From IMG/VR virus record IMGVR_UViG_3300029305_011318: a DNA stretch of 39,063 nucleotides. One strand, written 5' to 3'. How positions within the stretch are numbered: the stretch's first letter is position 1; each line of letters opens with the position of its first letter. This document shows, in pieces, positions 20,570-33,969 of this stretch. The notes under the pieces were generated by a model that was not told where the DNA came from, did no database searches, and saw nothing but the letters and a program-made list of their open reading frames with translations. Origin of the DNA: a virus (taxonomy: Duplodnaviria; Heunggongvirae; Uroviricota; Caudoviricetes). A program made the position numbers and the translations under genes.

Positions 20570-20575
20570 TTATAG

Positions 20576-20647: not shown

Positions 20648-20652
20648 ATAAT

Positions 20653-20695: not shown

Positions 20696-20763
20696 ATAAA
20701 AGAAAGAAAAGCTGAAAAAATGTAAAGTTGGAGATAGTTACATAATTATTTAAAGCATTGTAA

Positions 20764-20871
20764 TTAATCATAAGAAAAATATTTAATTGCAGAACAAATA
20801 GAACTACATGACTGTTGCCATCTAATTTGCGAACAACTTTGTGCAATTCGAATTCGTTTGAAATTAAACAT
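20764..20871 (-). CDS. Leader micro-ORF A (35 aa) MFNFKRIRIAQSCSQIRWQQSCSSICSAIKYFSYD
   Basis: RBS AAGGAG 8 nt before the ATG. It contains codons read by all 8 tRNAs of the downstream cluster. Confidence 0.75.
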   Translation of the reverse strand: MFNFKRIRIAQSCSQIRWQQSCSSICSAIKYFSYD

Positions 20872-20987
20872 ATCGCTTTCTCCTTATAATTTTTGTTAAA
20901 TGCCTGGGCATAATAACTATGCCCAAACATCTGACAAACAACGCAACGTATTTCCCAAAAGAGTTATAGCACATAACTCTCTATCTT

Positions 20988-21011
20988 TATATGTATAAAA
21001 TTTTGTCAAAA
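20988..21011 (-). promoter_or_regulatory. Copy of recurrent 24-bp promoter-like motif (upstream of leader A and tRNA cluster A)
   Basis: Minus strand TTTTGACAAAATTTTATACATATA. Confidence 0.7.
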
Positions 21012-21259
21012 CTTTTCAAAAAAATAACAAAATTTAAAAAAAATAATAAATTTTATTTATCAATTTCGTATTCTTCATTATTTAAATCAATATTGTGGTT
21101 ATTAATAGAAAAAATTATTTGTTTTTTATTTTTATTAGTTAAAATTTTATCCTCTTATATATTGATTATTTTCCTATATTTTGTAAATCAAAACTTTCAC
21201 AAATAATATCTGTTGCCATATCTTCATCTACAGTATGTAATCCAGGATAATATTGACCT

Positions 21260-21748
21260 TTAATCTAATGAAATATCTTCCATTTCTTGATTTAATTCAA
21301 TTTCAGCTTCTTTTTCATAACACCAAGCTCTCATTAATTGTAATCCTTTTTTGCATAATGCAATTTCATCTGATGTAATATTATGATAATTAGCAGTATC
21401 CGGATACCGAACATTATAATATAAACTTTCTATCTTTTTAACATGGGTGCGTAAATTTTCTGAGGCTTGAATATCAAAACGTCGTTGTAATTCAGAAAAC
21501 ATAGCATGAATATTATGCCCAAATGTTTTATATTGTTTTTGATTAAATGAATTTGTCGTTTTATATGTTAATTTATTAATATCTTGTGGTTCAATATTAT
21601 GCGCCTTACATAAAATATGTTTTGCATATTTTTCAATGGCTTGTTGTGTAATATAACCAATGGCATTAGAGTCATTAAATTTAAGCAATTCAATAACGGT
21701 TTTATAATCATTTTCTGCAGCATGAAGCCAATTTAATTGCGTTTCCAT
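21260..21748 (-). CDS. HEPN-domain protein
   Basis: WLHAAENDY...GYITQQAIEKYAK...GHNI...YYNVRYP, typical of MNT-associated HEPN proteins. Confidence 0.82.
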   Translation of the reverse strand: METQLNWLHAAENDYKTVIELLKFNDSNAIGYITQQAIEKYAKHILCKAHNIEPQDINKLTYKTTNSFNQKQYKTFGHNIHAMFSELQRRFDIQASENLRTHVKKIESLYYNVRYPDTANYHNITSDEIALCKKGLQLMRAWCYEKEAEIELNQEMEDISLD

Positions 21749-21978
21749 AATAATACTACCTCTTCTTCATCATCTTTAAAAGAAAAAGGAGCAAAATGGA
21801 GTGTTTCTGGGTCGTTAAAAATTTGTAAATTTATAATTTGATTCATAATATCCATATGGTCATTGGGAGTATTATTTGTAACATAATAAAACGTATCGGA
21901 ACTTACCGATTCATATACCTCTAATAAATATGTAATATTATTAAATAAATCTATTTTTTTTTGCATAATAATCTCCAT
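21733..21978 (-). CDS. Small acidic hypothetical protein overlapping the HEPN start (possible partner)
   Basis: 16-nt overlap with the HEPN gene; upstream promoter motif; no GSxARG MNT motif. Confidence 0.6.
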   Translation of the reverse strand: MEIIMQKKIDLFNNITYLLEVYESVSSDTFYYVTNNTPNDHMDIMNQIINLQIFNDPETLHFAPFSFKDDEEEVVLLWKRN

Positions 21979-21997
21979 TTTTATTTCTTTATATTGT

Positions 21998-22021
21998 TAT
22001 ATGTATAAATTTATCTCAAAG
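21998..22021 (-). promoter_or_regulatory. Copy of recurrent 24-bp promoter-like motif
   Basis: Minus strand CTTTGAGATAAATTTATACATATA. Confidence 0.62.
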
Positions 22022-22227
22022 ATACTTGTTTTATTATTCTAAATCAATTATATATTTCATAAACATAAAAAACAAATTATTGAATAAATAAGGGATATAG
22101 AATATATCTATACCCCCAGGTAGCGTCCGAAGAACCGAGTCTGCAGCCTCTACATCTTTTACAAAATTTCCAGCCAAGGTCATGACTCCTTTACCAAAAA
22201 AACGTAAACATGATGAACTACCACACA

Positions 22228-22300
22228 TGGAACATATGAGATTTGAACTCATGACCCCCTACTTGCAAGGCAGGTGCTCTCCCAACTGAGCTAATGCCCC
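22228..22300 (-). tRNA. tRNA-Ala(TGC)
   Basis: GGGGCAT acceptor with G3:U70; CCTGC-CT TGC AA-GTAGG. Confidence 0.92.
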
Positions 22301-22440
22301 AAATTGACTGGCTACCTCTCAAAACCAGTCGGACTTGGACTTCTCACCCGTAGGCTTCACTCTTGCCTTATCGGTTCACATACATCCAATATAACCACAA
22401 TTATTTATAAGTGAATCGTCAAGAGGTTTTTATTATAAAA

Positions 22441-22676
22441 AACAAATAGTAAGTGATTTCCGTTATTGCAAACGCAAGGCACAGTATAGCACCTTATGAA
22501 CAGTCGGTTCTTCGTATTTCAACGAATCCTATTTCACATGCCGGTTTCATCCAGATTTCTTGGCTCTTTTCCGGTCTTATCCTCTTGTTAATAGAGTCCC
22601 CACTTTTCCTTACAGTCTCCTTTTATTTTCGTTTCAGTAAGTGCTACTTGTAGTCAGATAAACCCTTTTGCAACTA
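22441..22676 (-). ncRNA. Candidate structured non-coding RNA, family unknown
   Basis: GC-enriched, with no supported ORF. Nested pairings CAAATAGT/ACTATTTG, TGCAAA/TTTGCA and GTAGCAC/GTGCTAT; internal hairpin TTCGT-TGAAAT-ACGAA. Confidence 0.5.
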
Positions 22677-22685
22677 TTTGTATTT

Positions 22686-23969
22686 TTATTCTTTTAATAA
22701 TTCTTTATATTTTTTAATTTTATGATTTTCATAAGTGTTTTTATAATCCGTTAAATATTGAATTAGGTCTTGTCCTATTAAACGTTTTTGTTGTAATTCT
22801 CGTAAAAATGATTTTTTTTCTTCATACATAGTAAGTAAAAATTCTTTACGATTCAACGTTAACCCTCTACATTGATTAAAGATATTTTGAACTTCTTCTT
22901 TGGTTGGTAATTTATCAATATTAATCAATGAAAAGTTTTTCACATGACTTAAACATTCAAATTCGGTATTATATAAACCATTTACTGTAGTTTCAACTAA
23001 ATTTTCTGGATATTCGCCCTCTTTAGTTTTTGAACTTCCATTATCAAAAATTGGTGCTGGGCTTATAAATTTTAATGTTTCGGAATTTCGTAAAAATCCA
23101 ATATTTCCTTGATGTCTATCTCTATTTGAAATTAAAAAATCCACAATTGTTTGTATATCTAAATAGTTATGCGTTTCTTGTTTGCTTAATCCATAATGAG
23201 ATGCTAATTCAACAATTTTATCCCAGATGTTATCAAGTTGTGTCATGTTATATTCTTCTAATAAATCATACGCAGATACAAATTCTATATTTTCATTAGT
23301 AAAACATTGACATATACAACCTATGATATTATTTGTTTTGTCATATACAAAATCATAATTACAGAAATTATTATATCCTTGTTTACGATAAATTAAAGAC
23401 GCAATAATTTCACGAGCAATTAAAATATCATATTGCATATCAATTTTTTTACAAAGCATAATATCTTGGTCTTTTTTATACCAAAATTTTTCTAATTGTC
23501 CTCCTAATGTAGAATTATGACCTTTATAAATATGATTGTTATCTTTAACAGTATAAAATTCATCAAGCGATTTAAATTTATCTTGAATATCTTTCCATGT
23601 TAAATTCTCTTTTTCTGATTCAATCCAATAACAATCATTAAAAGAATATCCATTGTTTTCTAACAACCATTTACGAGGAGAATAATCTTTTTGAATATAA
23701 GAATCGTAATTGTAACGATTAATTGGAATTTCTCTATCTGATAACCATCCATCAAATAAAATACAGCCATCTTCATTAAGAATAATATAATTATTATCTT
23801 CTGATTTAGATTCTATAAATTCAATATCATACCCTGGTTTTATTAATCGTTTTAATGGCAATGGTAGGGAATCTAAATATTGTGTGTTAATAATACAGGA
23901 GGTAATATCTTTATGTAAAGTTTCAAAAACAGCAAGATTAATATCTTTATGTTTTAATGTATATAACAT
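22686..23969 (-). CDS. HipA-like (HipA_C) Ser/Thr kinase
   Basis: STLGGQLEKFW; AREIIAS; DFLISNRDRHQGNIGF; APIFDNGSS. Confidence 0.85.
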   Translation of the reverse strand: MLYTLKHKDINLAVFETLHKDITSCIINTQYLDSLPLPLKRLIKPGYDIEFIESKSEDNNYIILNEDGCILFDGWLSDREIPINRYNYDSYIQKDYSPRKWLLENNGYSFNDCYWIESEKENLTWKDIQDKFKSLDEFYTVKDNNHIYKGHNSTLGGQLEKFWYKKDQDIMLCKKIDMQYDILIAREIIASLIYRKQGYNNFCNYDFVYDKTNNIIGCICQCFTNENIEFVSAYDLLEEYNMTQLDNIWDKIVELASHYGLSKQETHNYLDIQTIVDFLISNRDRHQGNIGFLRNSETLKFISPAPIFDNGSSKTKEGEYPENLVETTVNGLYNTEFECLSHVKNFSLINIDKLPTKEEVQNIFNQCRGLTLNRKEFLLTMYEEKKSFLRELQQKRLIGQDLIQYLTDYKNTYENHKIKKYKELLKE

Positions 23970-23981
23970 AATATATTCCTC

Positions 23982-24116
23982 CTATTTGGATTGATTTACA
24001 CGAAATTTGTTTATAGCATATTGAATAATATACTGTTTATCTTTTTTTTCGTTTGATTGATGTTGTTTTAATAAACTTGTTAATTTTTCTTTATCAGAAT
24101 TTATTTTCATAATCAT
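23982..24116 (-). CDS. Small ORF (44 aa) MIMKINSDKEKLTSLLKQHQSNEKKDKQYIIQYAINKFRVNQSK immediately upstream of the HipA-like kinase
   Basis: RBS AAAAGGA. Its stop codon overlaps the AGGAGG RBS of the kinase gene. Confidence 0.55.
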   Translation of the reverse strand: MIMKINSDKEKLTSLLKQHQSNEKKDKQYIIQYAINKFRVNQSK

Positions 24117-24181
24117 GTCCTTTTGTAATATAAATTAATATGTATTATACCACAAACAACACTATAAAAATATATTTTGGA

Positions 24182-24222
24182 AAAATTCCCTCTATATTGA
24201 AATATAATATAGGGGGAATTAT
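24182..24222. terminator. Intrinsic terminator
   Basis: AATTCCCTCTATATT/AATATAGGGGGAATT hairpin. Confidence 0.75.
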
Positions 24223-24223
24223 T

Positions 24224-24334
24224 TTACTTGGATTTTGTAGTTTTCTTCAATTTTTCTTTTTCTTTGTCTAATTCGTTCTTCATTTTTTTATGAAGACTAC
24301 CAATTTTTCCAACTGGTTTACAAGAAAGACCCAT
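24224..24334 (-). CDS. Small basic protein (36 aa) MGLSCKPVGKIGSLHKKMKNELDKEKEKLKKTTKSK
   Basis: RBS AAGGAG; own promoter motif upstream and terminator downstream. Confidence 0.65.
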   Translation of the reverse strand: MGLSCKPVGKIGSLHKKMKNELDKEKEKLKKTTKSK

Positions 24335-24382
24335 AATATACCTTCTCCTTTGTAATTTATAATTAAATTGTATTTACATGTA

Positions 24383-24406
24383 TATATGTTTAAAATCTTC
24401 TCAAAA
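24383..24406 (-). promoter_or_regulatory. Copy of recurrent 24-bp promoter-like motif
   Basis: Minus strand TTTTGAGAAGATTTTAAACATATA. Confidence 0.68.
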
Positions 24407-24442
24407 TCTTTAAAAATTTACTAAAATTTTAAAAAATAAAAA

Positions 24443-24519
24443 TGCCTTGTGTTGGAGTCGAACCAACTTCTCTGGATTTTCAGTCCAGTGCATGAAATTA
24501 CCGAATCTGCTTACAAGGC
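24443..24519 (-). tRNA. tRNA-Phe(GAA)
   Basis: CTGGA-CT GAA AA-TCCAG; acceptor GCCTTGT/ACAAGGC. Confidence 0.88.
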
Positions 24520-24566
24520 TAGGTAAAGTCAATGATTTCTTTACCTTTGCTAAATCGTTGTTTCAT
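24519..24566 (-). CDS. Micro-ORF (15 aa) MKQRFSKGKEIIDFT abutting tRNA-Phe
   Basis: RBS AGAAAGGA; CGA-TTT at codons 4-5; the G of the TAG stop is tRNA nucleotide 1. Confidence 0.62.
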   Translation of the reverse strand: MKQRFSKGKEIIDFT

Positions 24567-24603
24567 ATACTATTATCCTTTCTATATTTTTTTGATTACA
24601 TTT

Positions 24604-24885
24604 CTAATATAATATACATTGATTTACTAATTTTTCTACTAATTCTCGGTCAATTGGTCTTACACAGTGTCTACAATGCATCAAATATTGCACCAAGAAA
24701 AGTGCTCGTTCTTCAATTTGAACTTTTTCATATTCTAAAAAATAAACATTGTATTTGTGTAATAGTTTAAAAATATCGCTTCTGACAGGACCAACCTCTG
24801 CATCTTTGTTACCAAGAAACATTTTTGTAATTTCTCGGTTAAATTCCATCCTTTTATTCAGATTGTTCATTATATAAATCCCCAT
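24604..24885 (-). CDS. Hypothetical protein within the tRNA array
   Basis: 93-aa ORF filling the spacer between tRNA-Leu(TAG) and the Phe micro-ORF. Confidence 0.6.
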   Translation of the reverse strand: MGIYIMNNLNKRMEFNREITKMFLGNKDAEVGPVRSDIFKLLHKYNVYFLEYEKVQIEERALFLVQYLMHCRHCVRPIDRELVEKLVNQCILY

Positions 24886-24941
24886 ACCAAATCATTTGTG
24901 CATATTTGTTTTCTTTTCTATATATAAGTTTTTATATCAAA

Positions 24942-25023
24942 TACGGGTAATGGGAGTCGAACCCATAAGTAATTAAACCACTATATCCTAAGTATAGCCT
25001 CTGTTCCATTCGAGTACACCCGC
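24942..25023 (-). tRNA. tRNA-Leu(TAG)
   Basis: CTATA-CT TAG GA-TATAG; long variable arm; A73. Confidence 0.87.
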
Positions 25024-25029
25024 TTAAAG

Positions 25030-25093
25030 TACCCGAAGTTGGATTTAAACTAATAATATTATGATTTTAAATCATACATGTATTATTCGGGTA
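25030..25093 (-). pseudogene. Degenerate tRNA-like element lacking a D-arm (TAA anticodon-like loop)
   Basis: TACCCGAA/TTCGGGTA closing stem; TATGA-TTTAAAA-TCATA hairpin; degraded T-loop TTTAAAT. Confidence 0.5.
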
Positions 25094-25096
25094 TAG

Positions 25097-25179
25097 TACA
25101 CCCGATGAGATTCGAACTCACATGAGCAAGCTCCTTAGATTTTAAGTCTAATGCGTATACCAAGTTCCGCCACGGGTGC
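25097..25179 (-). tRNA. tRNA-Leu(TAA)
   Basis: TTAGA-CT TAA AA-TCTAA; Leu-type D-loop; long variable arm. Confidence 0.9.
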
Positions 25180-25185
25180 ATAATA

Positions 25186-25227
25186 TTATGTTTTGGTTAA
25201 TAAAGATAATAATTGGAGTCGCAACAT
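25186..25227 (-). CDS. Micro-ORF (13 aa) MLRLQLLSLLTKT upstream of the tRNA-Leu genes
   Basis: RBS AGAAAGGA; codons TTG CGA CTC CAA TTA TTA TCT TTA TTA; stop 6 nt before tRNA-Leu(TAA). Confidence 0.7.
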   Translation of the reverse strand: MLRLQLLSLLTKT

Positions 25228-25257
25228 ATTATGTTCCTTTCTATAATAAAAGTTGAG

Positions 25258-25328
25258 TTGCTATAACCAGGTTCGAACTGATTACACTATCCTTATGAGG
25301 GACAGCCGCTTCCACTAGCGTTATAGCA
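25258..25328 (-). tRNA. tRNA-Met/Ile2 (CAT)
   Basis: Loop CT-CAT-AA; acceptor TGCTATA/TATAGCA. Met versus Ile2 cannot be resolved by eye. Confidence 0.75.
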
Positions 25329-25337
25329 ATATGAATA

Positions 25338-25409
25338 AGCACATGAAGGGAGTTGAACCCTCGCTTCTTGCTTGGAAGGCAAGCGTCATAGCCGTTAGAC
25401 CACATATGC
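25338..25409 (-). tRNA. tRNA-Gly(TCC)
   Basis: CTTGC-CT TCC AA-GCAAG; U73. Confidence 0.9.
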
Positions 25410-25525
25410 ATATATTAGGCTAATAAGAAAATCAGTCTTTTCCACTCATAATATAGACTATTCGCTTCTTTTTTCTATGATTAAACTCTGTTGTTCTATT
25501 CATAAATTCTCTTTGATATTTTAAC

Positions 25526-25597
25526 TAGGAAGGGAGGGAATCGAACCCTCGACAACCCGCTTATAAGACGTGCTTTCTGCCACTGAATTACCTTCCC
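25526..25597 (-). tRNA. tRNA-Ile(TAT)
   Basis: Loop CT-TAT-AA; acceptor GGGAAGG/CCTTCCT; T-arm GAGGG-TTCGATT-CCCTC. Confidence 0.82.
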
Positions 25598-25638
25598 GTA
25601 TTTTTGTAAATATGGTTCGGTATTCGTATTCGTTTCAT
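25588..25638 (-). CDS. Micro-ORF (16 aa) MKRIRIPNHIYKNTGR running into tRNA-Ile(TAT)
   Basis: RBS AGAAAGG; codons AAA CGA ATA CGA ATA; the last 10 nt overlap the tRNA 5' end. Confidence 0.68.
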   Translation of the reverse strand: MKRIRIPNHIYKNTGR

Positions 25639-25671
25639 AAATATTATTACCTTTCTTATTTATAATAGAAA

Positions 25672-25745
25672 TAGCGGGAGTAGGATTCGAACCTACGTAT
25701 CCAAGGTTATGAGCCTTGTGAGCATCCTCTACTCGTCATCCCGCA
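25672..25745 (-). tRNA. tRNA-Met(CAT), initiator-like
   Basis: GG-CTCATAA-CC anticodon arm; mismatched 1:72 pair; only two G-C pairs at the stem base. Confidence 0.78.
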
Positions 25746-25750
25746 TATAG

Positions 25751-25823
25751 TGACTCCTGCCGGACTTGAACCGAGCATTACATCCTTGAAAGGGATGTGT
25801 CCTAACCTCTAGACCAAGGAGCC
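25751..25823 (-). tRNA. tRNA-Glu(TTC)
   Basis: CATCC-CT TTC AA-GGATG. Confidence 0.88.
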
Positions 25824-25969
25824 AAATAATAAATTGACTAAGGTTGGTTTTAACAGTTCCAACAACTTTGTACTTTTTATACTGCACCACGCAGTTTGTG
25901 TAGTCCCTCACAATTCTTATTATTCTAATAAGCAACTATCTTAAACATGTGCACATCCATTTTAGAAAG

Positions 25970-26043
25970 AGCCGATAGAGGGACTTGAACCCCCAACAAT
26001 CTGCTTACAAGGCAGTCGCTCTACCAATTGGAGCTATATCGGC
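25970..26043 (-). tRNA. tRNA-Thr(TGT)
   Basis: Loop CT-TGT-AA; acceptor GCCGATA/TATCGGC. Confidence 0.9.
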
Positions 26044-26075
26044 AAATAACTGATTCGTTACATTTTGGTTATTTA

Positions 26076-26789
26076 TTACCCCATTGCTCTACGACACACT
26101 CTTTTTTCAAGTAATGGCGTATCGATTTCAAAATAACCATTAATTATACGGTCATATTGAAACCATTGTGTTTCAGATGGAATAGGTTTAGAAATACCTT
26201 CTTCAAATGCTTCAATACATGCATATTGATAACATGTTTCATTTAAATCTGTTAAATTAAAATGTAATGCTTCAATGGCATTCAATTTATCGGTATAAAA
26301 TCCCCATACTCTACTTGCTCCATGATTATTAAATCCAGCAGGTCGTCTTTCGATTTCACCATTTTCATTTTGTTTTTCATATATAACTTCTTCTAATGTT
26401 TCGCACACATAAATGGTATAAATTTTGTGTGTATTTGTTTTTTGTGTGTTTAATCGAATAAAAGCAAGAATTTTATCCGATGGTAAATCGAATTCACATA
26501 TGTAATGAAAATTAATCGTATCTTTTAAAGATTTCCCATTTGTAGATAATATATCTTGATAATTCGTTGGGTTTTTTTTGTACGAAACTATATCTACAAT
26601 TGTACCTAATGTTAAATTGTCCATAGATTTTTCTTTATCTTCGATAATAACAGTGGAGGCTACAATTTGTCTTATATCATGCCATAAACCATGTACTTTA
26701 TATTGTGGATGATTTGTAGTAATTGTAATCTGTGGCATAAAATATTTTTGGATGTCTTTTTGAGATAACATATAAATTGCCTCCATCAA
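26076..26789 (-). CDS. Hypothetical protein within the tRNA array
   Basis: 237-aa ORF. A GGAGG RBS suggests the real start is the internal MLSQK. Confidence 0.75.
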   Translation of the reverse strand: MMEAIYMLSQKDIQKYFMPQITITTNHPQYKVHGLWHDIRQIVASTVIIEDKEKSMDNLTLGTIVDIVSYKKNPTNYQDILSTNGKSLKDTINFHYICEFDLPSDKILAFIRLNTQKTNTHKIYTIYVCETLEEVIYEKQNENGEIERRPAGFNNHGASRVWGFYTDKLNAIEALHFNLTDLNETCYQYACIEAFEEGISKPIPSETQWFQYDRIINGYFEIDTPLLEKRVCRRAMG

Positions 26790-26814
26790 AAATAATAAAA
26801 TCGTTTTGGATTAA

Positions 26815-26900
26815 GGGTGAAAGATGAGACTTGAACTCACAAGGGCATTTACCCGCCGGAACCACAATCCGGTGCGTTTACCAATTCCGCCACTAACACC
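26815..26900 (-). tRNA. tRNA-His(GTG) with a long variable arm
   Basis: CCGGA-TT GTG GT-TCCGG; G-1:C73; Leu-like D-loop; extra arm CGGG-TAAATG-CCC. Confidence 0.82.
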
Positions 26901-27065
26901 ATATGTAAGGGTGACACTAAGCATATGACTACAACCGAATCATCTACAGTCATAATCAATCTTCTCCGAGGTTTTACCCCTTACTATTTTATCAAGGCAC
27001 AACTTGATAAACCTTAGACATAAGTTTTTTGTATAGAAATCTTGTACTACTCTATACATGCTTCG

Positions 27066-27139
27066 TTGGAATAGTGGGATTCGAACCCACACATTCTCCC
27101 ATCCAACGGGAGTTGGCTACCAATTACCTCTATATTCCA
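27066..27139 (-). tRNA. tRNA-Pro(TGG)
   Basis: CTCCC-GT TGG AT-GGGAG; T-arm GTGGG-TTCGAAT-CCCAC. Confidence 0.82.
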
Positions 27140-27235
27140 TTAACATTATCAGTTAATACTTTTAATTCAGATGTCTTATATGGTAATCCATATTTTTTAC
27201 ACCATTTTCTATCATTACACCACATTCTCGCTATA

Positions 27236-27487
27236 TTATGCAGAAATGTATTCTGTTTCATAATCTTTCATATCTGCAGATACGATTTCTTTGTCTTTCA
27301 TTTCTGCAATAGTTGGTAAATTATAATGCTTACCATATTTACATAATTTGCAGCTACAATGAATTTTATTTTTTGAATATTGTCCATCATGTTCATACCA
27401 ATTATCTCTATAAATAGCATGACAAATGGCTTTTTTACGCATGATGTGTTTATTTCGTAAACGTCTTCGTTCTGCTCTATAATGCAT
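27236..27487 (-). CDS. Small basic Cys/His-containing hypothetical protein
   Basis: RBS AGGAGA; HCSCKLC motif. Confidence 0.72.
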   Translation of the reverse strand: MHYRAERRRLRNKHIMRKKAICHAIYRDNWYEHDGQYSKNKIHCSCKLCKYGKHYNLPTIAEMKDKEIVSADMKDYETEYISA

Positions 27488-27516
27488 AAGGTATCTCCTA
27501 TAATGGTGTTTTATAA

Positions 27517-27597
27517 TGCGTCTGACAGGATTCGAACCTGCGATGGATTGCTCCCACGGATTAAAAGTCCGGTGCCCTACCTCTAGGCGACAGACGC
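27517..27597 (-). tRNA. tRNA-Lys(TTT) with an enlarged variable region
   Basis: Loop CT-TTT-AA; acceptor GCGTCTG/CAGACGC; extra hairpin GGA-GCAA-TCC. Confidence 0.85.
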
Positions 27598-27639
27598 TTA
27601 TGGTTTTCGTACTTTTGATTTACGTTTTCGTTTCTTCAT
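27598..27639 (-). CDS. Micro-ORF (13 aa) MKKRKRKSKVRKP abutting tRNA-Lys(TTT)
   Basis: RBS AGAAAGGA; codons AAG AAA CGA AAA CGT AAA TCA AAA GTA CGA AAA; the TAA directly precedes tRNA nucleotide 1. Confidence 0.72.
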   Translation of the reverse strand: MKKRKRKSKVRKP

Positions 27640-27825
27640 AATAATATGTTTCCTTTCTATTTCTTAATTTTTAATTACTAGGCTCCCAATCTGCTACTCT
27701 ATATATAATGGTTCATTACAAATGTTTCTAGCTAATCATCTTGTAATATAATATATATTTCATTGGTTGATTTAAGGTGCAGTTTCGCCTCGGTTCTTAT
27801 GTTAAACTGAACTCCACCTAGTAAA

Positions 27826-27897
27826 TGCCTAATGAGGGATTCGAACCTACAACTTTTCGGTTAACAGCCGCTTGCTCTACCATTGAACTACACGCCC
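27826..27897 (-). pseudogene. Chimeric/defective tRNA-Asn(GTT)
   Basis: Normal D and anticodon arms, but 5' GGGCGTG does not pair with 3' ATTAGGC and T-stem GTAGG does not pair with CCCTC. Confidence 0.72.
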
Positions 27898-27937
27898 AAA
27901 AAAATACCACCTATTACATCATATAATAAGTGGTATC
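27898..27937 (-). terminator. Terminator/attenuator directly abutting tRNA cluster B
   Basis: 13-bp stem ATACCACTTATTA/TAATAGGTGGTAT plus U6, ending at tRNA-Asn nucleotide 1. Confidence 0.85.
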
Positions 27938-28001
27938 TTTTCATTAATCTAAGAAAGTGAGATATTTATCTGGGCAAACATATTGTTTGTTCCATTTATT
28001 A

Positions 28002-28127
28002 TTATACAATGAAATGGTCTATATCTTTATTTGATTGTTTGTTTTTATCCATAGGGAAATAAAAGCTTTTTTCAAGCCCACGTTCTAAATTCATAGTATT
28101 AATTGTATTTTTTACCATGTTTATCAT
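28002..28127 (-). CDS. Leader micro-ORF B (41 aa) MINMVKNTINTMNLERGLEKSFYFPMDKNKQSNKDIDHFIV
   Basis: RBS AGAAAGG; lies between the promoter motif and the attenuator hairpin. Confidence 0.68.
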   Translation of the reverse strand: MINMVKNTINTMNLERGLEKSFYFPMDKNKQSNKDIDHFIV

Positions 28128-28227
28128 AACTTTTCCCTTTCTGTTTGTTTCTTAATATTACTATACGGTAATTTTTATTTTTTGAAAGTATTTTTCAAAA
28201 ATTTTTTATTTTTTTCTTATCTATGTA

Positions 28228-28251
28228 TATATGTATAAAAATTTCTCAAAA
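28228..28251 (-). promoter_or_regulatory. Copy of recurrent 24-bp promoter-like motif (upstream of leader B and tRNA cluster B)
   Basis: Minus strand TTTTGAGAAATTTTTATACATATA. Confidence 0.7.
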
Positions 28252-28283
28252 ATCATCAAAAAATAGATAATTTTTAAAATTTT

Positions 28284-29003
28284 TTATTTTTTTTCATATT
28301 CTTCAATACAATCTGCAATACTTTCTAAGTCTTGCCGACTAAAAACATCTGTTAATAATGTATAAGTTGCATTATCGAAATATTTTAAATAATGTCCTTT
28401 CATAATATATCCAAGGGGTGCTGTTTTAGAAAATATATGTGCAAATCCATTTTCTTTTGGATTTTCAAAAACTGATAATTTTCGATAACTATATGGCTGT
28501 ACATCCATCGGAATGGTTTTATAAGAGGACATTAGTTTTATTAATGAAAATCGATTATCTAAATAGATAGATAATAAATCATTCATTTTATATAATGGGT
28601 TCATCAAAATTAAAGATAATCCGGTTGTATAAATTATATTAGATAATGAATTAGTTTCATGTGTTAAAAAATGATGATGGTAAAATAACGTATATGTAGT
28701 TGGTTGTATTTGTTGACCAAATACAATTGGAGAATATTCTTGAATACCAAAATCTAATATTTGATTATTTAAAGTAAGCCAAATATGGTCTTTTGTATTA
28801 TCTTTCCATAATTGTGGAATAGATATTTGTCCATAATGTAAAATTGGTTTATATCCATATTCACATAACAAAATATATAACGCAATATTCGTTAAAACAT
28901 TTGTATCTTCCGGAATATTCTCATAAGCATGAAATAACAAATTTTGTAATACTTTATCATGCGAAATATTTTTGTGCAAAATTTGATTTATTGTTAATGA
29001 CAT
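28284..29003 (-). CDS. Hypothetical protein
   Basis: 239-aa ORF with RBS GAGGA. Confidence 0.7.
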   Translation of the reverse strand: MSLTINQILHKNISHDKVLQNLLFHAYENIPEDTNVLTNIALYILLCEYGYKPILHYGQISIPQLWKDNTKDHIWLTLNNQILDFGIQEYSPIVFGQQIQPTTYTLFYHHHFLTHETNSLSNIIYTTGLSLILMNPLYKMNDLLSIYLDNRFSLIKLMSSYKTIPMDVQPYSYRKLSVFENPKENGFAHIFSKTAPLGYIMKGHYLKYFDNATYTLLTDVFSRQDLESIADCIEEYEKK

Positions 29004-29346: not shown

Positions 29347-29378
29347 AAAAAAAGATACGACTTAAATCGTATCTTTTT
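29347..29378. terminator. Intrinsic terminator
   Basis: AAAAGATACGA-CTTAAA-TCGTATCTTTT. Confidence 0.82.
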
Positions 29379-30570
29379 CATCATATTCTTCTATTTTATT
29401 TATTTCATAATCTAAAGTATTATTTTTATCTTTAATAGGGATTTGTAATTCTTTTGCTCTTTCCATAAAAGATTGATATTGTCTATCTGTCAAAAACAAA
29501 TCTCTTGTAATGGGTTTTGTAAAATGAAAATCTACATGTTTCATGGCTTCTTTTGCAGTTTCATAAATAGATTCTCCGGTTAATTGATATTTGGCATTTT
29601 TATCTCGCATATAAGCAATATCAAACGCATTATTATGGTCGTACAAAGGATGACAACCTAATATTTCCATTGTATTACAATTATAGAAAAATCCCCAATT
29701 CATACCATGCCTATCACGATTACTAATTAAATAATCAACTATCATCATTTTATACATAGAATCCGGGTCTATTTTAATGGCTTCTCGTAATGTATCTAAT
29801 CCTTGTTGGTTACAATACGAATAAAAATCAACACCCGGTAAAATAGCAATATCTTCTGTTGTCATACATTTACATTTTACAGTATCTAAGATTTCATTTG
29901 TTTGTACATCCATAGATGTGCTCATTTCATAATGAAGATGTTCAACATTACAACAATCTAAAATATTGCTGCACATAGCTTCAATTTTTGATTCCCAAGA
30001 ACCATTTGCACCTAATTTATGTAAGTATAATCCATCTTCTTCTCTCTTCCATGCTTTTGCATAGGCTCCTTGTCCTGTTAATTCCGGTGTGGTTAAATTT
30101 CCATCTAAAGATAAACTACTGCCATGTAAAGATACTTGAATAACCACTTCACTTAATGAATTGGTTCGTAAATTAACATCTTCCCAAGTTTTAGTATCGC
30201 CTTCTAATTTTACCCAATAATTATCTTGTAAGGATACTGCCCGACATAATAATGCTATTTTGGCTTTATCATAATCAGATTGCAATTGTTCTAAATTAAA
30301 TAATGTGTAAATTTTCTTTGCATTATCACGAGTAATAGGTAATACCCGATGTGCTAAAAATGACTTTATTGAATCGTTATTAGCATTATTAACGATAGTG
30401 GCTTGCGTAACGTCATATTTAAAATTACCGGTTAATGGTTTATGTTCACGTAATCTATATTTTAATGTAAATGGAATTAATTGTTTATTTAATACATCAT
30501 ATTTACCTTCATCAAAATTAATTTGCATAACCGGTTCATTTTTCATCATTAATAATAAATCTCTTGCCAT
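29362..30570 (-). CDS. Second HipA-like (HipA_C) Ser/Thr kinase
   Basis: PELTGQGAYAKAW; DYLISNRDRHGMNWGF; HPLYDHNNAF; RBS AAGGAGAGG. Confidence 0.85.
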   Translation of the reverse strand: MARDLLLMMKNEPVMQINFDEGKYDVLNKQLIPFTLKYRLREHKPLTGNFKYDVTQATIVNNANNDSIKSFLAHRVLPITRDNAKKIYTLFNLEQLQSDYDKAKIALLCRAVSLQDNYWVKLEGDTKTWEDVNLRTNSLSEVVIQVSLHGSSLSLDGNLTTPELTGQGAYAKAWKREEDGLYLHKLGANGSWESKIEAMCSNILDCCNVEHLHYEMSTSMDVQTNEILDTVKCKCMTTEDIAILPGVDFYSYCNQQGLDTLREAIKIDPDSMYKMMIVDYLISNRDRHGMNWGFFYNCNTMEILGCHPLYDHNNAFDIAYMRDKNAKYQLTGESIYETAKEAMKHVDFHFTKPITRDLFLTDRQYQSFMERAKELQIPIKDKNNTLDYEINKIEEYDEKDTI

Positions 30571-30705: not shown

Positions 30706-33700
30706 TTACATACTTATACGTTCTGAAATTTCCGCCATCTTCGCTTTATTTAAGCGAGTATCTCCATGAACTCGTGAAAATGAAAGATAGCCATTCATTC
30801 TGTCAATCTTAGTTAGATTACTGCTTCCGCATTTTGGACATACATCCATTTCTAACTGTTGATGACCACAATCATCACAATATGCTAATGATAAATTAAC
30901 TCCTTCATAGAATCCCATTTTCATTGCACGACGTACTAATGTTTTAATAGAATCTATATTATAATCAATTGGGTATCGTACATATTGAATTTTTCCACCA
31001 TTGAATAAATTCCAAAATCTATTTTCTAAATTTTGTTTTTCAATTGGTGTGATTTTTTCTGTAACATGACAATGAAAACTGTTAGATACATATTCTCTAT
31101 CTGATACGTTTTCAATAATGCCGAATTCTTTTCTAAATTGTGTTACTTGTTTACCCGTTAAACTTTCGGCAGGAGTCCCATATATAGCATAAAGGATATT
31201 ATCTTCTTTTTTATATTCATCTAATTTTTTATTAATATATTCCATTACTTCTAATGCAAATTGCCCATCTTCTACTATGGATTTACCATTATATAATCTT
31301 TGTAATTCGTTCAAAGCAGTAATACCAAAAGAGGCTGTTGATGATTTTAATACAGGAGCAATTTTATCATTCAAATCTAAATGCCCACCATAAAAACCAC
31401 CTTCACAAAAACCTAATGGATTCATAGATGCTTTCATATGGGATAAATGTTCATAAGTTCGTTTATGAATATTCCGTATCATTTCTAAATAATAATCTAA
31501 TTCTTCATAAAAATCTTTTCCGGTTCGTCTGGATTTTGCTAAAATCATTGGAAGATGTAAAGACACAACTCCGCAATTAAATCTTCCAACAAATACCGGT
31601 TTGTCATTTTCATCTACTGGATACATTCCACCATATTCATACCAAGGAGAAAGGAAAGCTCTACAATTATGACTATATATACCGCTAACTTCAAAATGCT
31701 CGCTATCTGTTGTAACATCATAACTATACATTTGTCTTTCTATTGGTAAGATTTCAACAATTTCCGCATACGTATTATAATGAGATGAAACTGCATCTCT
31801 ATAAAATTGACGTTTTTTTTCACAAATAATATAATTGAGCAATTCTTCTGTTGCGAAAAATTCAACTCTATAGCGAATAGCATTTGGATTATTTTTTAAA
31901 TAATGATTGTGATAAATTTTAGCGGGCATACCCAAGGCTTGTACTAATGCCATTTGTTGTAACGACAATTCTTTATTTGTGGAACCAATTTGAACAACTG
32001 AACCACCATGCGAACTTGCATTTAAATAACCATCAGCATCAATCATTCCTGCTAAAAACGCCATTTTAGATTCATAATCCCAAGAAAAAACTTCGTTAGG
32101 AATATGCCGATTAATCTTATTAATTCCGCCAAATTTTACAGTAAAATAATTTATAGTAGATTGTAAGTTATTATTTTCATCAGCTATTGCAACTAAATCT
32201 TTATATCGACCTTTCTTACCTCGTTCTTGTAAAATTGTTTTTGTTTTTAAATCAAAATATTTTGAAAAAACATAGTGGAACTTATTCTCGATTTCATCTT
32301 CTCCTTGTGCGGCTATTGACACATAAATTCTGTTAGATTGATAACAACCATCACAAAGCATAAATCCTAATAACCAAGCCTTATCTTTATTAAAAACAAT
32401 TGTTTCTTCATTATATTGGTTTGAATTTATCATAATTTTATCTGATATTTGTAAATTTTTAGCGATTATTTGACCTTTTTCAATAACTTCAAAAGGATGG
32501 TCCTCGGTACACAATAGTCGACGACCATTTGATAAATGTACATCAATCCATTTATCAGATACATTTCGTATGATTTTTTGTGTATTTACAAAACCTTTTT
32601 CAGTATCATATATCATTACATCTAATAAATTCATATACATGTGTGGTTGACCTAAAATTTGATATTGTGGTTCAAAAAAGTCCGATAGTCGTTTCCACAT
32701 TCTTTCAAAAGATTCAACATATAATTGATTTTTATATTTATATGTGATAATTTCTTTGCCATCTACGCAACCCATTGGCGAAACTACTTTTCCATATTTT
32801 TTATACATTTCTGCCACATAACCATCACCAGTTAAACTTAACCAGTCAGGATACATGGTTTTTGCAGAACATTGTATTCCTACCTCAAAAACATCTTCTA
32901 AAACTTTTCCAGGTCCATGTAAATTTTCATCATACAGGAAAACCAATTTCGGAAATAAAACCGGTTTTTTATGACCTTTTTTACCTTGACCATTCATTCT
33001 AGTTCTTAAAATAGATTTGGAAATCTCTTTACCCCATTTGGAAGTATTTAATCCAAAAGTTGCGGTAATAAATGGATAATCTCCACGGCTAGAAGCTACG
33101 GTATTAAATTTGTATTCCCAGCCTTGAAATCCTTGGTCTATATCTTTACATACTTTTTTTGTTGCATATTCATTAGCATCTTGTGATAAATTAATACCAT
33201 ACGCATCATATTCAATATTATGTTGTTGCATAATATCTAAATATTCATTATAATATCTTTGATATGATTTTTCGGCATATGGCTCTAATATAAAATCTAC
33301 TTCCGGAAGTGTGAAACCTCCATACTGCTGACTCGCGGCCATTAATGTAATATCTCCAATCACATCAAATGCAGTATCAATTGTTTTAGGTTCATTATAC
33401 CAAACATTTCCCATTTCAAATCCACCAGTAAGAATAGACTGAATATCGCAGAGACAGCAATTCATGGTATCAAGTCTGGCACCTTTATCATGAGGATAGA
33501 TATAACCTTCTGCCGCCGCTTTCCGTTCATCTGCATTAAGAAAATATTCTTCATATTGTGCTGTCTCTAAAATATCTAATTTTTTGACTCTTTTAGTAGA
33601 GACTAATGATGAATCTGCATTGGAATTGGATTTATCTCCTAAAAATTGAATAGCATTACATTCGGCTGTTACTTTAGCATTCATTTGTGCTTCTCGTTTA

Positions 33701-33969
33701 ATCCAATTACGATAATCTTTATAAGATTTCGCAACATCCGAGCGAATTTCTTCTAATGCCATTTCTACTAAAGAATGTACTGTTTCTACCGGAATAACAT
33801 TATCACTTCTAGTAAAAACTTGATTTTCGACTAATGCTATCACTTTTGCGTTTTCGTCATCCGATAATTGAGAAGCAATACGGTTAGCTGATTCGCTAAT
33901 GGCATGTATAATTTTGTTCGCATCCCACTCTTCTAAATTCCCGGATTTTTTTCTTACATAAATATCCAT
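30706..33969 (-). CDS. nrdD: Class III (anaerobic) ribonucleoside-triphosphate reductase with ATP-cone, containing an intein
   Basis: N-terminal ATP-cone; YGTPAESL; Zn ribbon CDDCG...CPKCG; glycyl-radical motif RMNGYL. Confidence 0.95.
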   Translation of the reverse strand: MDIYVRKKSGNLEEWDANKIIHAISESANRIASQLSDDENAKVIALVENQVFTRSDNVIPVETVHSLVEMALEEIRSDVAKSYKDYRNWIKREAQMNAKVTAECNAIQFLGDKSNSNADSSLVSTKRVKKLDILETAQYEEYFLNADERKAAAEGYIYPHDKGARLDTMNCCLCDIQSILTGGFEMGNVWYNEPKTIDTAFDVIGDITLMAASQQYGGFTLPEVDFILEPYAEKSYQRYYNEYLDIMQQHNIEYDAYGINLSQDANEYATKKVCKDIDQGFQGWEYKFNTVASSRGDYPFITATFGLNTSKWGKEISKSILRTRMNGQGKKGHKKPVLFPKLVFLYDENLHGPGKVLEDVFEVGIQCSAKTMYPDWLSLTGDGYVAEMYKKYGKVVSPMGCVDGKEIITYKYKNQLYVESFERMWKRLSDFFEPQYQILGQPHMYMNLLDVMIYDTEKGFVNTQKIIRNVSDKWIDVHLSNGRRLLCTEDHPFEVIEKGQIIAKNLQISDKIMINSNQYNEETIVFNKDKAWLLGFMLCDGCYQSNRIYVSIAAQGEDEIENKFHYVFSKYFDLKTKTILQERGKKGRYKDLVAIADENNNLQSTINYFTVKFGGINKINRHIPNEVFSWDYESKMAFLAGMIDADGYLNASSHGGSVVQIGSTNKELSLQQMALVQALGMPAKIYHNHYLKNNPNAIRYRVEFFATEELLNYIICEKKRQFYRDAVSSHYNTYAEIVEILPIERQMYSYDVTTDSEHFEVSGIYSHNCRAFLSPWYEYGGMYPVDENDKPVFVGRFNCGVVSLHLPMILAKSRRTGKDFYEELDYYLEMIRNIHKRTYEHLSHMKASMNPLGFCEGGFYGGHLDLNDKIAPVLKSSTASFGITALNELQRLYNGKSIVEDGQFALEVMEYINKKLDEYKKEDNILYAIYGTPAESLTGKQVTQFRKEFGIIENVSDREYVSNSFHCHVTEKITPIEKQNLENRFWNLFNGGKIQYVRYPIDYNIDSIKTLVRRAMKMGFYEGVNLSLAYCDDCGHQQLEMDVCPKCGSSNLTKIDRMNGYLSFSRVHGDTRLNKAKMAEISERISM
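31666..32769 (-). mobile_element. Intein (368 aa) with a LAGLIDADG homing endonuclease in nrdD
   Basis: SPMG|CVDG...YSHN|CRAF junctions; two LAGLIDADG motifs, WLLGFMLCDG and FLAGMIDADG. Confidence 0.92.

What the first reader, a model, noticed from the sequence alone, without database searches (positions are those of the whole stretch)
27517..27660. Lys-rich micro-ORF whose stop codon abuts tRNA-Lys nucleotide 1
MKKRKRKSKVRKP has 6 Lys codons and its TAA directly precedes the tRNA, with no terminator between them. A terminating ribosome would therefore cover the RNase P cleavage site and the acceptor 5' strand, while a ribosome stalled on AAA codons would leave them free. This points to translation-gated tRNA maturation rather than attenuation (inference).
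Basis: partly seen in the sequence, partly recalled or inferred. Interest (0 to 1): 0.72.

Follow-up and report, generated by a model that had tools for sequence, protein, structure and literature searches.

The report
Lysine-rich mini-gene abutting phage tRNA-Lys
In an uncultured gut phage, a 13-codon reading frame that is half lysine codons ends exactly where a tRNA-Lys gene begins; it is one of four such codon-matched mini-genes, which probably let ribosome speed report how much of each tRNA is needed, a control I could not find described for tRNA genes.

Summary
On the minus strand, ATG 27639 to TAA 27598 encodes MKKRKRKSKVRKP. It has 6 Lys codons and an extended Shine-Dalgarno sequence (AGAAAGGA). 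Its stop touches nucleotide 1 of a well-scoring tRNA-Lys(UUU), with no hairpin or terminator between them.

It is not an isolated case. Three sibling micro-ORFs with the same SD end from 6 nt before to 10 nt inside tRNA-Leu(UAA), tRNA-Ile(UAU) and tRNA-Phe, and each is enriched in the cognate amino acid:
- Cognate enrichment: combined P about 1e-6.
- 84 comparable ORFs from 41 other phage loci: none reaches the 0.5 cognate fraction of the Lys and Leu ORFs; all four siblings are at or above the controls' 95th percentile.
- The rare codon CGA: 6 in 53 codons, P = 2e-7, each followed by a cognate codon.

A codon-sensing leader is therefore well supported. The proposed output, ribosome position gating RNase P access, fits the geometry of all four modules but is untested.

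No close relative carrying the Lys module and no RNA data could be found. One divergent faecal contig keeps the Ile sibling's frame open.

This scan has noted codon-matched leaders before phage tRNA genes in at least 27 other genomes, mostly with terminators. My literature searches found no published case.

The parts
27651..27658 (-). Extended Shine-Dalgarno AGAAAGGA, 11 nt before the ATG
   Evidence: Eight of the 10 minus-strand AGAAAGG sites lie 7-12 nt before a start codon (3 long genes, 4 micro-ORFs, leader B). The motif is complementary to the 16S 3' end of Firmicutes (established knowledge).
27598..27639 (-). Lys micro-ORF MKKRKRKSKVRKP plus TAA. Lys codons at positions 2, 3, 5, 7, 9 and 12; CGA/CGT/CGA at positions 4, 6 and 11
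27517..27597 (-). tRNA-Lys(UUU), 81 nt, with a 14-nt variable arm (GGA-GCAA-UCC hairpin), discriminator A and no encoded CCA
25186..25227 (-). Sibling: Leu micro-ORF MLRLQLLSLLTKT (TTG, CTC, TTA x4). Its stop lies 6 nt before tRNA-Leu(UAA) at 25096-25179
25588..25638 (-). Sibling: Ile micro-ORF MKRIRIPNHIYKNTGR (ATA x2, ATT). It runs 10 nt into tRNA-Ile(UAU) at 25526-25597
24519..24566 (-). Sibling: Phe micro-ORF MKQRFSKGKEIIDFT (TTT x2). The G of its TAG is nt 1 of tRNA-Phe(GAA) at 24443-24519
28002..28127 (-). 41-codon leader B ORF at the head of the transcription unit that contains the Lys module
   Evidence: scan note e1-5386037
27906..27944 (-). Hairpin plus T-run (ATACCAC...GTGGTAT TTTTTTT) after leader B, immediately before a degenerate tRNA-Asn-like sequence
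28220..28279 (-). Repeated promoter-like box. The next copy downstream is at 24375-24434, so the Lys module is internal to one unit
   Evidence: families D2, D8, D12, D14
20764..20871 (-). Leader A. 23 of its 34 residues are amino acids of the tRNAs that follow. It contains AAA-CGA-ATT-CGA-ATT and is followed by a terminator hairpin and tRNA-Ile(GAU)
   Evidence: P = 8e-8

Best explanation
The Lys micro-ORF is a translated, cis-acting leader that measures how fast ribosomes decode AAA/AAG. It is one of four per-tRNA sensors embedded in a polycistronic phage tRNA-mRNA transcript.

Proposed working:
- When Lys-tRNA is plentiful, ribosomes loaded at the strong SD run to the stop codon. There they sit on the RNase P cleavage site and melt the 5' acceptor strand (about tRNA nt 1-10), which delays or diverts maturation of tRNA-Lys.
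- When Lys-tRNA is scarce, the first ribosome is held at Lys codons 2-9. This is possibly sharpened by CGA or CGT in the P site. Its leading edge then stays upstream of the tRNA, it blocks further initiation, and the tRNA folds and is cut out.
- The net effect is negative feedback on each heavily used tRNA.

Shown: the anatomy, the SD strength, the cognate and CGA enrichment, the absence of a terminator and the common geometry.

Inferred: translation, stalling, RNase P occlusion and the sign of the effect.
For: - The ORF, stop and tRNA junction are as described.
- SD strength: 8 of 10 AGAAAGG sites on the coding strand precede a start codon, and 5 of these 8 are tRNA-linked leaders.
- Four micro-ORFs are matched to the next tRNA: K 6/12, L 6/12, I 3/15, F 2/14. 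Fisher-combined P = 8e-7 with gene amino-acid usage and 8e-6 with iid nucleotides.
- Empirical control: 84 SD-preceded ORFs next to tRNAs in 41 other phage loci have a mean cognate fraction of 0.048, a 95th percentile of 0.13 and a maximum of 0.33. Upstream regions of 272 other phage tRNAs show no cognate bias (z = -0.02 +/- 0.06), so composition alone does not produce the match.
- CGA: 6 in 53 codons against 0.48% in the phage's genes, P = 2e-7. All 6 are followed by a codon for the cognate amino acid (about 7e-4). The same AAA-CGA-X-CGN-X core occurs in leader A.
- The four peptides have unrelated chemistry (polybasic versus hydrophobic), which argues for a cis role.
- The Lys codons are interleaved, so no A-run exceeds 4.
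- There is no hairpin or terminator, and no Rfam element other than tRNAs.
- All four stops lie between -6 and +10 of tRNA nt 1. A ribosome's leading edge is about 12-13 nt past the first A-site nucleotide (toeprint knowledge), so termination always covers the cleavage site.
- The same window holds leader A, a codon-matched ORF (P = 8e-8) followed by a terminator hairpin.
- A divergent faecal contig keeps the Ile sibling open despite 7 substitutions and indels that sum to 3 nt. Its CGA-ATA core is identical.
- Possible independent analogue: L014, where AGAAAGGA-ATG-MKRKAKKT lies 57 nt before a block of three tRNA-Lys genes.
Against: - No homologous Lys module was found in any relative. Phages that share neighbouring genes (L004-L006, L042-L048) and the nearest tRNA-Lys relative (L041) lack it.
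- Ile (P = 0.15) and Phe (P = 0.13) are individually weak. The four tRNAs read all-A/T codons, which an AT-rich spacer favours.
- A permutation of the four ORFs among the four tRNAs can give at best P = 1/24.
- RNase P cleavage is irreversible, so transient occlusion alone changes timing, not yield.
- Lys codon 12 would itself place a stalled ribosome over tRNA nt 1-4.
- The Pro-stop ending, which could prolong termination, is not shared by the siblings.
Confidence: 0.4

Rival explanations
1. Same sensor, different output. The ribosome stalled at cognate codons acts as a roadblock that shields the downstream precursor from 5'-to-3' or scanning nucleases (RNase J1/Y/E), as in ermC-type induced stability. 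Alternatively it alters RNA polymerase coupling. Either way, scarcity raises tRNA yield without any role for RNase P occlusion.
For: - All the evidence for a sensor applies.
- The module lies inside a long polycistronic unit where processing creates new 5' ends.
- Stalls at codons 2-3 sit at the 5' edge of the leader.
- It gives a yield effect without a competing decay path having to be assumed separately.
Against: - It does not explain why all four stops fall within -6..+10 of the tRNA start.
- The nucleases of the unknown host are not known.
Confidence: 0.22
2. The micro-ORFs are translated or ribosome-bound but do not sense codons. The strong SD serves as a stabiliser of the STAB-SD type, or keeps inter-tRNA spacers covered, and the cognate match is a by-product of AT-rich spacers lying next to tRNAs for AT-rich codons.
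For: - The strongest SDs of the window are concentrated here.
- The four tRNAs read AAA, UUA, AUA and UUU, which are all-A/T codons.
- Ile and Phe enrichment is weak on its own.
- The module is absent from relatives.
Against: - 6/12 Lys and 6/12 Leu each have P of about 1e-4 even under an AT-rich iid model.
- Other phage tRNA upstream regions show no cognate bias.
- CGA, which is GC-rich and rare, is enriched at P = 2e-7 and is always followed by a cognate codon.
Confidence: 0.13
3. Chance ORF in an A-rich, hexamer-periodic spacer (AAANNN repeats) with no function.
For: - A 13-codon ORF is trivial in itself.
- Exact stop-tRNA abutment occurs in about 0.6% of control tRNAs.
- MKKRKRK-type starts are common in phage DNA: more than 104 IMG/VR hits, none next to a tRNA.
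Against: Family-level statistics, the shared SD and CGA motif, the control sets, and the codon-matched leader A in the same window.
Confidence: 0.07
4. RNA-level, T-box-like sensing. The Lys codons of the leader pair with the anticodon of a tRNA, in cis or in trans, without translation.
For: Cognate codons are by definition complementary to the anticodon, and the host is probably a Firmicute, where T-boxes are common.
Against: - No T-box or other cis-regulatory family matched at E <= 1.
- The leader is unstructured, with no Stem I and no terminator or antiterminator.
- A strong SD and ATG at the correct spacing, and in-frame periodicity of the cognate codons, point to translation.
Confidence: 0.02

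Closest known systems
Ribosome-mediated transcription attenuators (trpL, hisL, leuL, pheL, thrL, ilvL; pheM leader of pheST)
   Same: A short leader ORF with its own SD, packed with codons cognate to the product under control. Ribosome speed is the signal. pheM already applies this logic to a gene of the translation apparatus.
   Different: There is no terminator or antiterminator, the controlled product is a tRNA rather than a protein, and the ORF stop touches the tRNA. My literature searches found no case for tRNA genes.
Terminator-containing codon-matched leaders before phage tRNA blocks (leader A and leader B of this window; scan notes from at least 27 other genomes)
   Same: Same phage and same SD. 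Leader A also has the same AAA-CGA-cognate core, and its composition matches the tRNAs downstream.
   Different: Those leaders act on whole blocks through a hairpin plus T-run. The Lys, Leu, Ile and Phe micro-ORFs are each dedicated to one tRNA, are internal to the unit and have no terminator.
Translational attenuation and induced RNA stability by a ribosome stalled in a short leader (ermC, ermB, cat)
   Same: The position of a stalled ribosome in a leader of about 10-20 codons decides the fate of the RNA just downstream without transcription termination. The leaders also contain R/K-x-R/K motifs.
   Different: The signal there is an antibiotic and the output is unmasking of a downstream SD. 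Here no downstream SD is involved, and the adjacent element is a tRNA.
tRNA punctuation of mitochondrial transcripts, and bacterial mRNA-tRNA co-transcripts separated by RNase P (secG-leuU, tufB operon; PMC2241853)
   Same: A coding frame directly abuts or overlaps a tRNA, and RNase P cleavage defines the 3' end of the message. In the Phe and Ile siblings the cut would remove the stop codon.
   Different: No sensing function is attached to those junctions, and the ORFs there encode real proteins.
T-box riboswitches
   Same: They monitor the charging or supply of one tRNA species in order to control a translation-related gene in Firmicutes.
   Different: They work by direct RNA-tRNA binding with Stem I, a specifier loop and a terminator. 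None of these is present.

Membership tests
tRNA (Rfam RF00005) | Cloverleaf covariance-model score above the gathering threshold (29 bits) | tested here: met
   60.7 bits, full-length model match at 27517-27597. ARAGORN calls Lys(ttt). The minimum-energy fold is a cloverleaf with an extra variable-arm hairpin.
Leader-peptide transcription attenuator | Short ORF with SD and start codon upstream of the regulated gene | tested here: met
   AGAAAGGA, then 11 nt, then ATG, 13 codons
Leader-peptide transcription attenuator | Regulatory codons cognate to the controlled product | tested here: met
   6 of 12 codons are Lys, P = 1e-4. The siblings are matched to Leu, Ile and Phe.
Leader-peptide transcription attenuator | Intrinsic terminator between the leader and the regulated gene | tested here: not met
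   There are 0 nt between the stop and the tRNA, and no hairpin plus T-run on this strand
Leader-peptide transcription attenuator | Alternative antiterminator pairing overlapped by the leader ORF | tested here: not met
   The leader is essentially unpaired in both the minimum-energy and centroid folds. The z-score of the whole fold is -1.0.
T-box riboswitch | Stem I with specifier loop, T-box sequence and terminator/antiterminator | tested here: not met
   No Rfam match other than tRNAs at E <= 1 in 19000-29000, and the leader is unstructured
erm/cat-type translational attenuation | Downstream gene's SD sequestered in a hairpin that a stalled leader ribosome opens | tested here: not met
   The element immediately downstream is a tRNA, not a translated gene, and there is no hairpin
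Cognate-codon micro-ORF abutting a tRNA (family defined in this window) | AGAAAGG-type SD; ATG; CGA within codons 3-5 followed by a cognate codon; stop within -6..+10 of tRNA nt 1 | tested here: met
   All features are present in the Lys, Leu, Ile and Phe modules
Cognate-codon micro-ORF abutting a tRNA (family defined in this window) | Translation of the ORF and dependence of tRNA output on it | not testable with these tools
   No RNA run was listed. This needs ribosome profiling and northern blots.

The most novel reading that the evidence does not exclude
Ribosome position directly gates RNase P processing. In this reading, a phage runs two tiers of feedback on its tRNA supply. Operon-level attenuators (leaders A and B) act on whole blocks. 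Per-tRNA micro-ORFs act on single tRNAs, because their terminating ribosomes physically occlude and unfold the abutting tRNA 5' end, while ribosomes stalled at CGA-sensitised cognate codons release it. This would be a new class of post-transcriptional control of a non-coding RNA by translation.
Probability: 0.3. Interest if true: 0.9.

Novelty: new variant of a known kind. Interest (0 to 1): 0.75.

Why it matters
Phage-encoded tRNAs are usually treated as constitutive supplements for codon bias, or as replacements for tRNAs destroyed by host defences. A leader that reads the decoding rate of exactly the codons served by the next tRNA would mean that phages measure each tRNA and adjust its supply individually.

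The terminator-less form would also extend leader-peptide sensing to a new output, namely processing or stability of a structured RNA that the ribosome runs into. This gives a direct and simple test system for how translation and RNase P compete on one transcript.

The CGA-cognate dicodon is a concrete and testable design rule for tuning the sensitivity of such sensors.

Tried and rejected
Searches for relatives that carry the Lys module:
- GenBank phages by blastn: only tRNA-sized hits.
- IMG/VR with three neighbouring proteins and with the exact tRNA: one distant hit for the 83-aa protein (L001, 38% identity) with no tRNA in the locus, and nothing for the others.
- One metagenome scan with a tRNA-Lys pattern: only L041, a distant AT-rich contig. 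Its tRNA-Lys follows the end of an ordinary ORF and has no leader.
- GTDB genomes with the Ile-leader 23-mer and with the tRNA-Lys pattern: nothing.
- The Ile-leader 23-mer in IMG/VR: nothing.
- Homologues of the flanking 237-aa and 83-aa proteins were fetched (L004-L006, L042-L048). They sit in different tRNA contexts or have no tRNA-Lys.
- The 93-aa neighbour has no homologue other than itself.

Other checks:
- Degenerate MKKRKRK pattern in IMG/VR: more than 104 loci, none next to a tRNA.
- General test for cognate-rich upstream regions in 272 other phage tRNAs: no trend. The top outliers in L010 are C-termini of ordinary proteins.
- Sequencing runs: no RNA holder was listed. Four faecal DNA runs hold the identical phage at 2-4x with no variation in the Lys leader.
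- A joint at 27634->25981 in one X2 contig (32 nt on its shorter side) could be a Lys-leader-like stretch elsewhere or a low-complexity artefact, and I did not interpret it.
- A sigma-70-like match (TTAAGA-18-TATTAT) overlaps the SD and ATG, but such matches are no more frequent than in shuffles (22 against 26.4), so I did not treat it as a promoter.
- Leader-tRNA alternative pairing: none.
- Literature searches for leader peptides or uORFs controlling tRNA genes, for ribosome-RNase P interplay, for T5 tRNA-region small ORFs and for long-arm tRNA-Lys in phages found no description.

Full report
**Observation.** The minus strand reads AGAAAGGAAACATATTATT ATG AAG AAA CGA AAA CGT AAA TCA AAA GTA CGA AAA CCA TAA, followed at once by GCGTCTGTCGCC....
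- The ORF is 27639..27598 and encodes MKKRKRKSKVRKP, with six Lys codons (AAG x1, AAA x5).
- ARAGORN places tRNA-Lys(ttt) at 27517-27597. Rfam's tRNA model matches the same coordinates end to end at 60.7 bits. The TAA therefore touches nucleotide 1 of a perfect 7-bp acceptor stem.
- Folding the SD, leader and tRNA gives an almost unpaired leader and a cloverleaf.
- The terminator scan finds nothing on this strand between the ORF and the tRNA or just after the tRNA.
- No other Rfam family matches at E <= 1 in 19000-29000.

**Source.** The window is part of a 127-kb JGI metagenome contig.
- It has 28% GC and nearly all its genes are on the minus strand.
- It carries phage-like genes: an anaerobic ribonucleotide reductase with an intein, a UvrD-type helicase and two HipA_C-like proteins.
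- No whole genome is held for it.
- Six animal-faeces DNA runs hold parts of it.

**The ORF is one of a family.** I listed the 70 nt upstream of every tRNA and then all SD-preceded short ORFs in the cluster. The same module appears three more times.

| Module | ORF (minus strand) | Peptide | Cognate codons | Stop relative to the tRNA |
|---|---|---|---|---|
| Lys | 27639-27598 | MKKRKRKSKVRKP | AAG, AAA x5 | abuts nt 1 of tRNA-Lys(UUU) |
| Leu | 25227-25186 | MLRLQLLSLLTKT | TTG, CTC, TTA x4 | 6 nt before tRNA-Leu(UAA) |
| Ile | 25638-25588 | MKRIRIPNHIYKNTGR | ATA x2, ATT | 10 nt inside tRNA-Ile(UAU) |
| Phe | 24566-24519 | MKQRFSKGKEIIDFT | TTT x2 | the G of its TAG is nt 1 of tRNA-Phe(GAA) |

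The tRNA-Phe gene was seen only by Rfam, at 57 bits.
- All four ORFs are preceded by AGAAAGG(A/T) 7-12 nt before the ATG.
- That heptamer occurs ten times on the coding strand. Eight copies sit at a start codon: three long genes including nrdD, the four micro-ORFs, and the 41-codon leader B.
- The micro-ORFs therefore carry the best ribosome-binding sites the phage has.

**Is the match to the tRNA more than chance?**
- With the amino-acid usage of the window's 27 long ORFs, the probabilities of the observed cognate counts are 9.5e-5 (Lys), 2.1e-4 (Leu), 0.15 (Ile) and 0.13 (Phe). The Fisher-combined value is 8e-7. An iid model with the strand's base composition gives 8e-6.
- As an empirical null I used tRNA clusters fetched for other reasons: 445 tRNAs in 38 sources at that stage.
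  - Among 126 ATG ORFs ending within about 18 nt of a tRNA start, the Leu and Lys ORFs rank first.
  - Among 93 that also have an SD, the 84 from other phages have a mean cognate fraction of 0.048, a 95th percentile of 0.13 and a maximum of 0.33. The window's four have 0.50, 0.50, 0.20 and 0.14.
- Upstream regions of 272 other phage tRNAs show no cognate bias (z = -0.02 +/- 0.06). An AT-rich spacer beside a tRNA for an AT-rich codon is therefore not enough to explain the match.
- Caveats: the Ile and Phe cases are weak alone, the four tRNAs read all-A/T codons, and a permutation of four ORFs over four tRNAs can give no better than 1/24.

**A second, independent signature.**
- CGA makes up 0.48% of codons in the phage's genes but occurs six times in the 53 sense codons of the four micro-ORFs (P = 2e-7; 1e-5 under iid).
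- All six are followed by a codon for the cognate amino acid (about 7e-4 if codon order were shuffled).
- The core reads AAA-CGA-AAA-CGT-AAA (Lys), AAA-CGA-ATA-CGA-ATA (Ile), CGA-CTC (Leu) and CGA-TTT (Phe).
- Leader A, in front of the next tRNA block, has AAA-CGA-ATT-CGA-ATT. It is built 23/34 from the amino acids of the tRNAs behind it (P = 8e-8) and is followed by a terminator hairpin that ends just before tRNA-Ile(GAU).
- CGA is read through an I:A wobble, which is known to be slow (my knowledge: Curran 1995; yeast CGA codon pairs). That it sensitises the following A-site codon here is inference.
- The four peptides share no chemistry (polybasic versus hydrophobic), which points to a cis-acting role.
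- The Lys codons are interleaved so that no A-run exceeds four, which avoids slippery poly(A).

**Transcription context.**
- A repeated promoter-like box lies at 28279-28220 and again at 24434-24375, with three further copies.
- Between those two copies lie, in order: leader B, a hairpin plus T-run, a degenerate tRNA-Asn-like sequence, the Lys module, an 83-codon gene, then Pro, His, a 237-codon gene, Thr, Glu, Met, the Ile module, Gly, Met, the Leu module with two further tRNA-like genes, a 93-codon gene, and the Phe module.
- The Lys micro-ORF is therefore internal to one long tRNA-mRNA transcript. Terminator-based control at the head of that transcript cannot tune individual tRNAs, which is where a local per-tRNA device would make sense.

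**Mechanism.** There is no terminator, so classical attenuation is excluded at this site. I used the toeprint rule that a ribosome's leading edge lies about 12-13 nt beyond the first A-site nucleotide (established knowledge).
- A terminating ribosome would cover tRNA nt 1-10 (Lys), 1-4 (Leu), 1-11 (Phe) and 1-20 (Ile). In every case it also covers the RNase P site.
- A ribosome waiting at Lys codons 2-9 ends at ORF nt 16-37, short of the tRNA (nt 43). It also blocks the start site.
- It also has weaknesses:
  - Lys codon 12 would itself put the ribosome over tRNA nt 1-4.
  - RNase P cleavage is irreversible, so transient occlusion changes timing unless the precursor also decays.
  - Only the Lys ORF ends in Pro-stop, a slow-termination context in E. 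coli (from memory).
- A stalled ribosome acting as a nuclease roadblock fits the sequence about as well.
- My estimates: about 0.65 that the ORF is a codon-sensing leader, about 0.4 for the full occlusion model, and about 0.2 for the same sensor working through another output.

**Relatives.** I found no homologous Lys module.
- There is no close relative in GenBank phages, IMG/VR, the JGI metagenome collection or GTDB genomes.
- L041 has a related long-arm tRNA-Lys but no leader.
- Phages sharing the 237-aa or 83-aa neighbours have other arrangements.
- Four faecal runs contain the identical phage at low depth.
- One divergent 5.9-kb contig in run X3 covers tRNA-Ile(UAU) and its leader. My reconstruction from the listed differences keeps ATG AAA CGA ATA CGA ATA CCG AA unchanged, while the rest has seven substitutions and two deletions that sum to 3 nt.
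  - The frame stays open to the same TAA, giving MKRIRIPKIRMIKRR with four Ile.
  - The same contig appears to join the end of tRNA-Ile directly to the start of the Leu leader (table 5).
  - This is weak but positive evidence that the modules are maintained. The gap placement is uncertain and it rests on one contig at 6.7x.
- In an unrelated IMG/VR phage (L014), AGAAAGGA-8 nt-ATG AAA CGC AAG GCC AAG AAA ACC TAA lies 57 nt before a block of three tRNA-Lys genes (binomial 4.8e-4 among 81 ORFs tested). This is a possible independent analogue.

**Comparison with what is known.**
- The sensing logic is that of leader-peptide attenuators (trpL, hisL, leuL, pheL; pheM for pheST). The defining terminator and antiterminator were tested and are absent, so I do not file it as a member.
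- It is not a T-box and not an erm-type translational attenuator, because no downstream SD is involved.
- The zero-nucleotide ORF-tRNA junction recalls mitochondrial tRNA punctuation and RNase P-separated mRNA-tRNA co-transcripts such as secG-leuU (PMC2241853), which carry no sensor.
- Five full-text searches found no description of leader peptides or uORFs controlling tRNA genes.
- Notes of this scan report codon-matched leaders before phage tRNA blocks in at least 27 other genomes, mostly with terminators. One reports micro-ORFs close to this type. The notes for this window list the same family, the CGA dicodon and leaders A and B.
- I had found the family independently and re-tested the claims I use.

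**Verdict.** The feature is real, is statistically well supported as a family, and is most likely a per-tRNA codon-sensing leader. It is a new variant of leader-peptide sensing, and its terminator-less output mechanism remains open.

Noticed in passing
window 27517-27597; L007-L040 (e.g. L013:4584-4670, L026:6608-6698); L041: tRNA-Lys(UUU) with a long, class-II-like variable arm (81-91 nt; the hairpin often has a GNRA-type loop, and the stems differ in sequence but stay complementary). It occurs in 34 IMG/VR phage tRNA clusters, usually beside a normal tRNA-Lys. In many copies the D-arm resembles tRNA-Tyr. It may be a way to escape tRNA-Lys-targeting anticodon nucleases. No paper was found.
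   Followed up: partly
L014:5287-5313 (-), upstream of tRNA-Lys 5144-5231: In an unrelated phage with higher GC, a strong SD plus MKRKAKKT* and an 8-bp hairpin without a T-run lie 57 nt before a Lys-Lys-Lys tRNA block. This may be an independent Lys-leader analogue.
   Followed up: partly
window 27834-27905 (-): A degenerate tRNA-Asn-like sequence (Rfam 28.9 bits, just under threshold; T-stem and acceptor stem mismatched) lies directly after the leader-B hairpin plus T-run.
   Followed up: no
window 24443-24519, 25030-25092, 19998-20088 (-): The two tRNA tools disagree at three places. tRNA-Phe(GAA) (57 bits) and a 63-nt minimal tRNA-like gene between the two Leu tRNAs (36 bits) are seen only by Rfam. 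ARAGORN's 91-nt 'tRNA-Gly' has no Rfam support.
   Followed up: partly
window 28220-28279, 24375-24434, 21979-22023, 20970-21039, 19749-19790: Five copies of a box of about 40-60 nt (plus strand ...TATGTATATATGTATAAAA.TTTCTCAAAA...) stand in front of leader A, leader B and other units. This is probably the phage's own promoter class.
   Followed up: partly
window 22686-23969 and 29362-30570 (-): Two HipA_C-like kinase genes (E about 1e-5 to 1e-6, below Pfam cut-offs) flank the tRNA cluster. HipA-family kinases are known to target aminoacyl-tRNA synthetases, which would create the kind of hungry codons these leaders would read. Relatives L042 and L044 also pair HipA_C with the 83-aa gene family.
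   Followed up: no
window 26815-26899 (-): tRNA-His is 85 nt long and also has an expanded variable region.
   Followed up: no
window 22302-22371 (-), upstream of tRNA-Ala: An unusually GC-rich stretch of about 70 nt in a 28% GC genome, which looks structured. It has no Rfam match.
   Followed up: no
L004:11048-11120, L006:10649-10721; L006:11928-11999: Distant relatives carry a tRNA with anticodon UCA (reads UGA) and tRNAs with odd anticodons (Ser ACU, Tyr AUA). This hints at stop-codon recoding or decoding peculiarities in that lineage.
   Followed up: no
window 30706-33969 (-): The anaerobic ribonucleotide reductase gene nrdD is interrupted by an intein with a LAGLIDADG homing endonuclease.
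   Followed up: no
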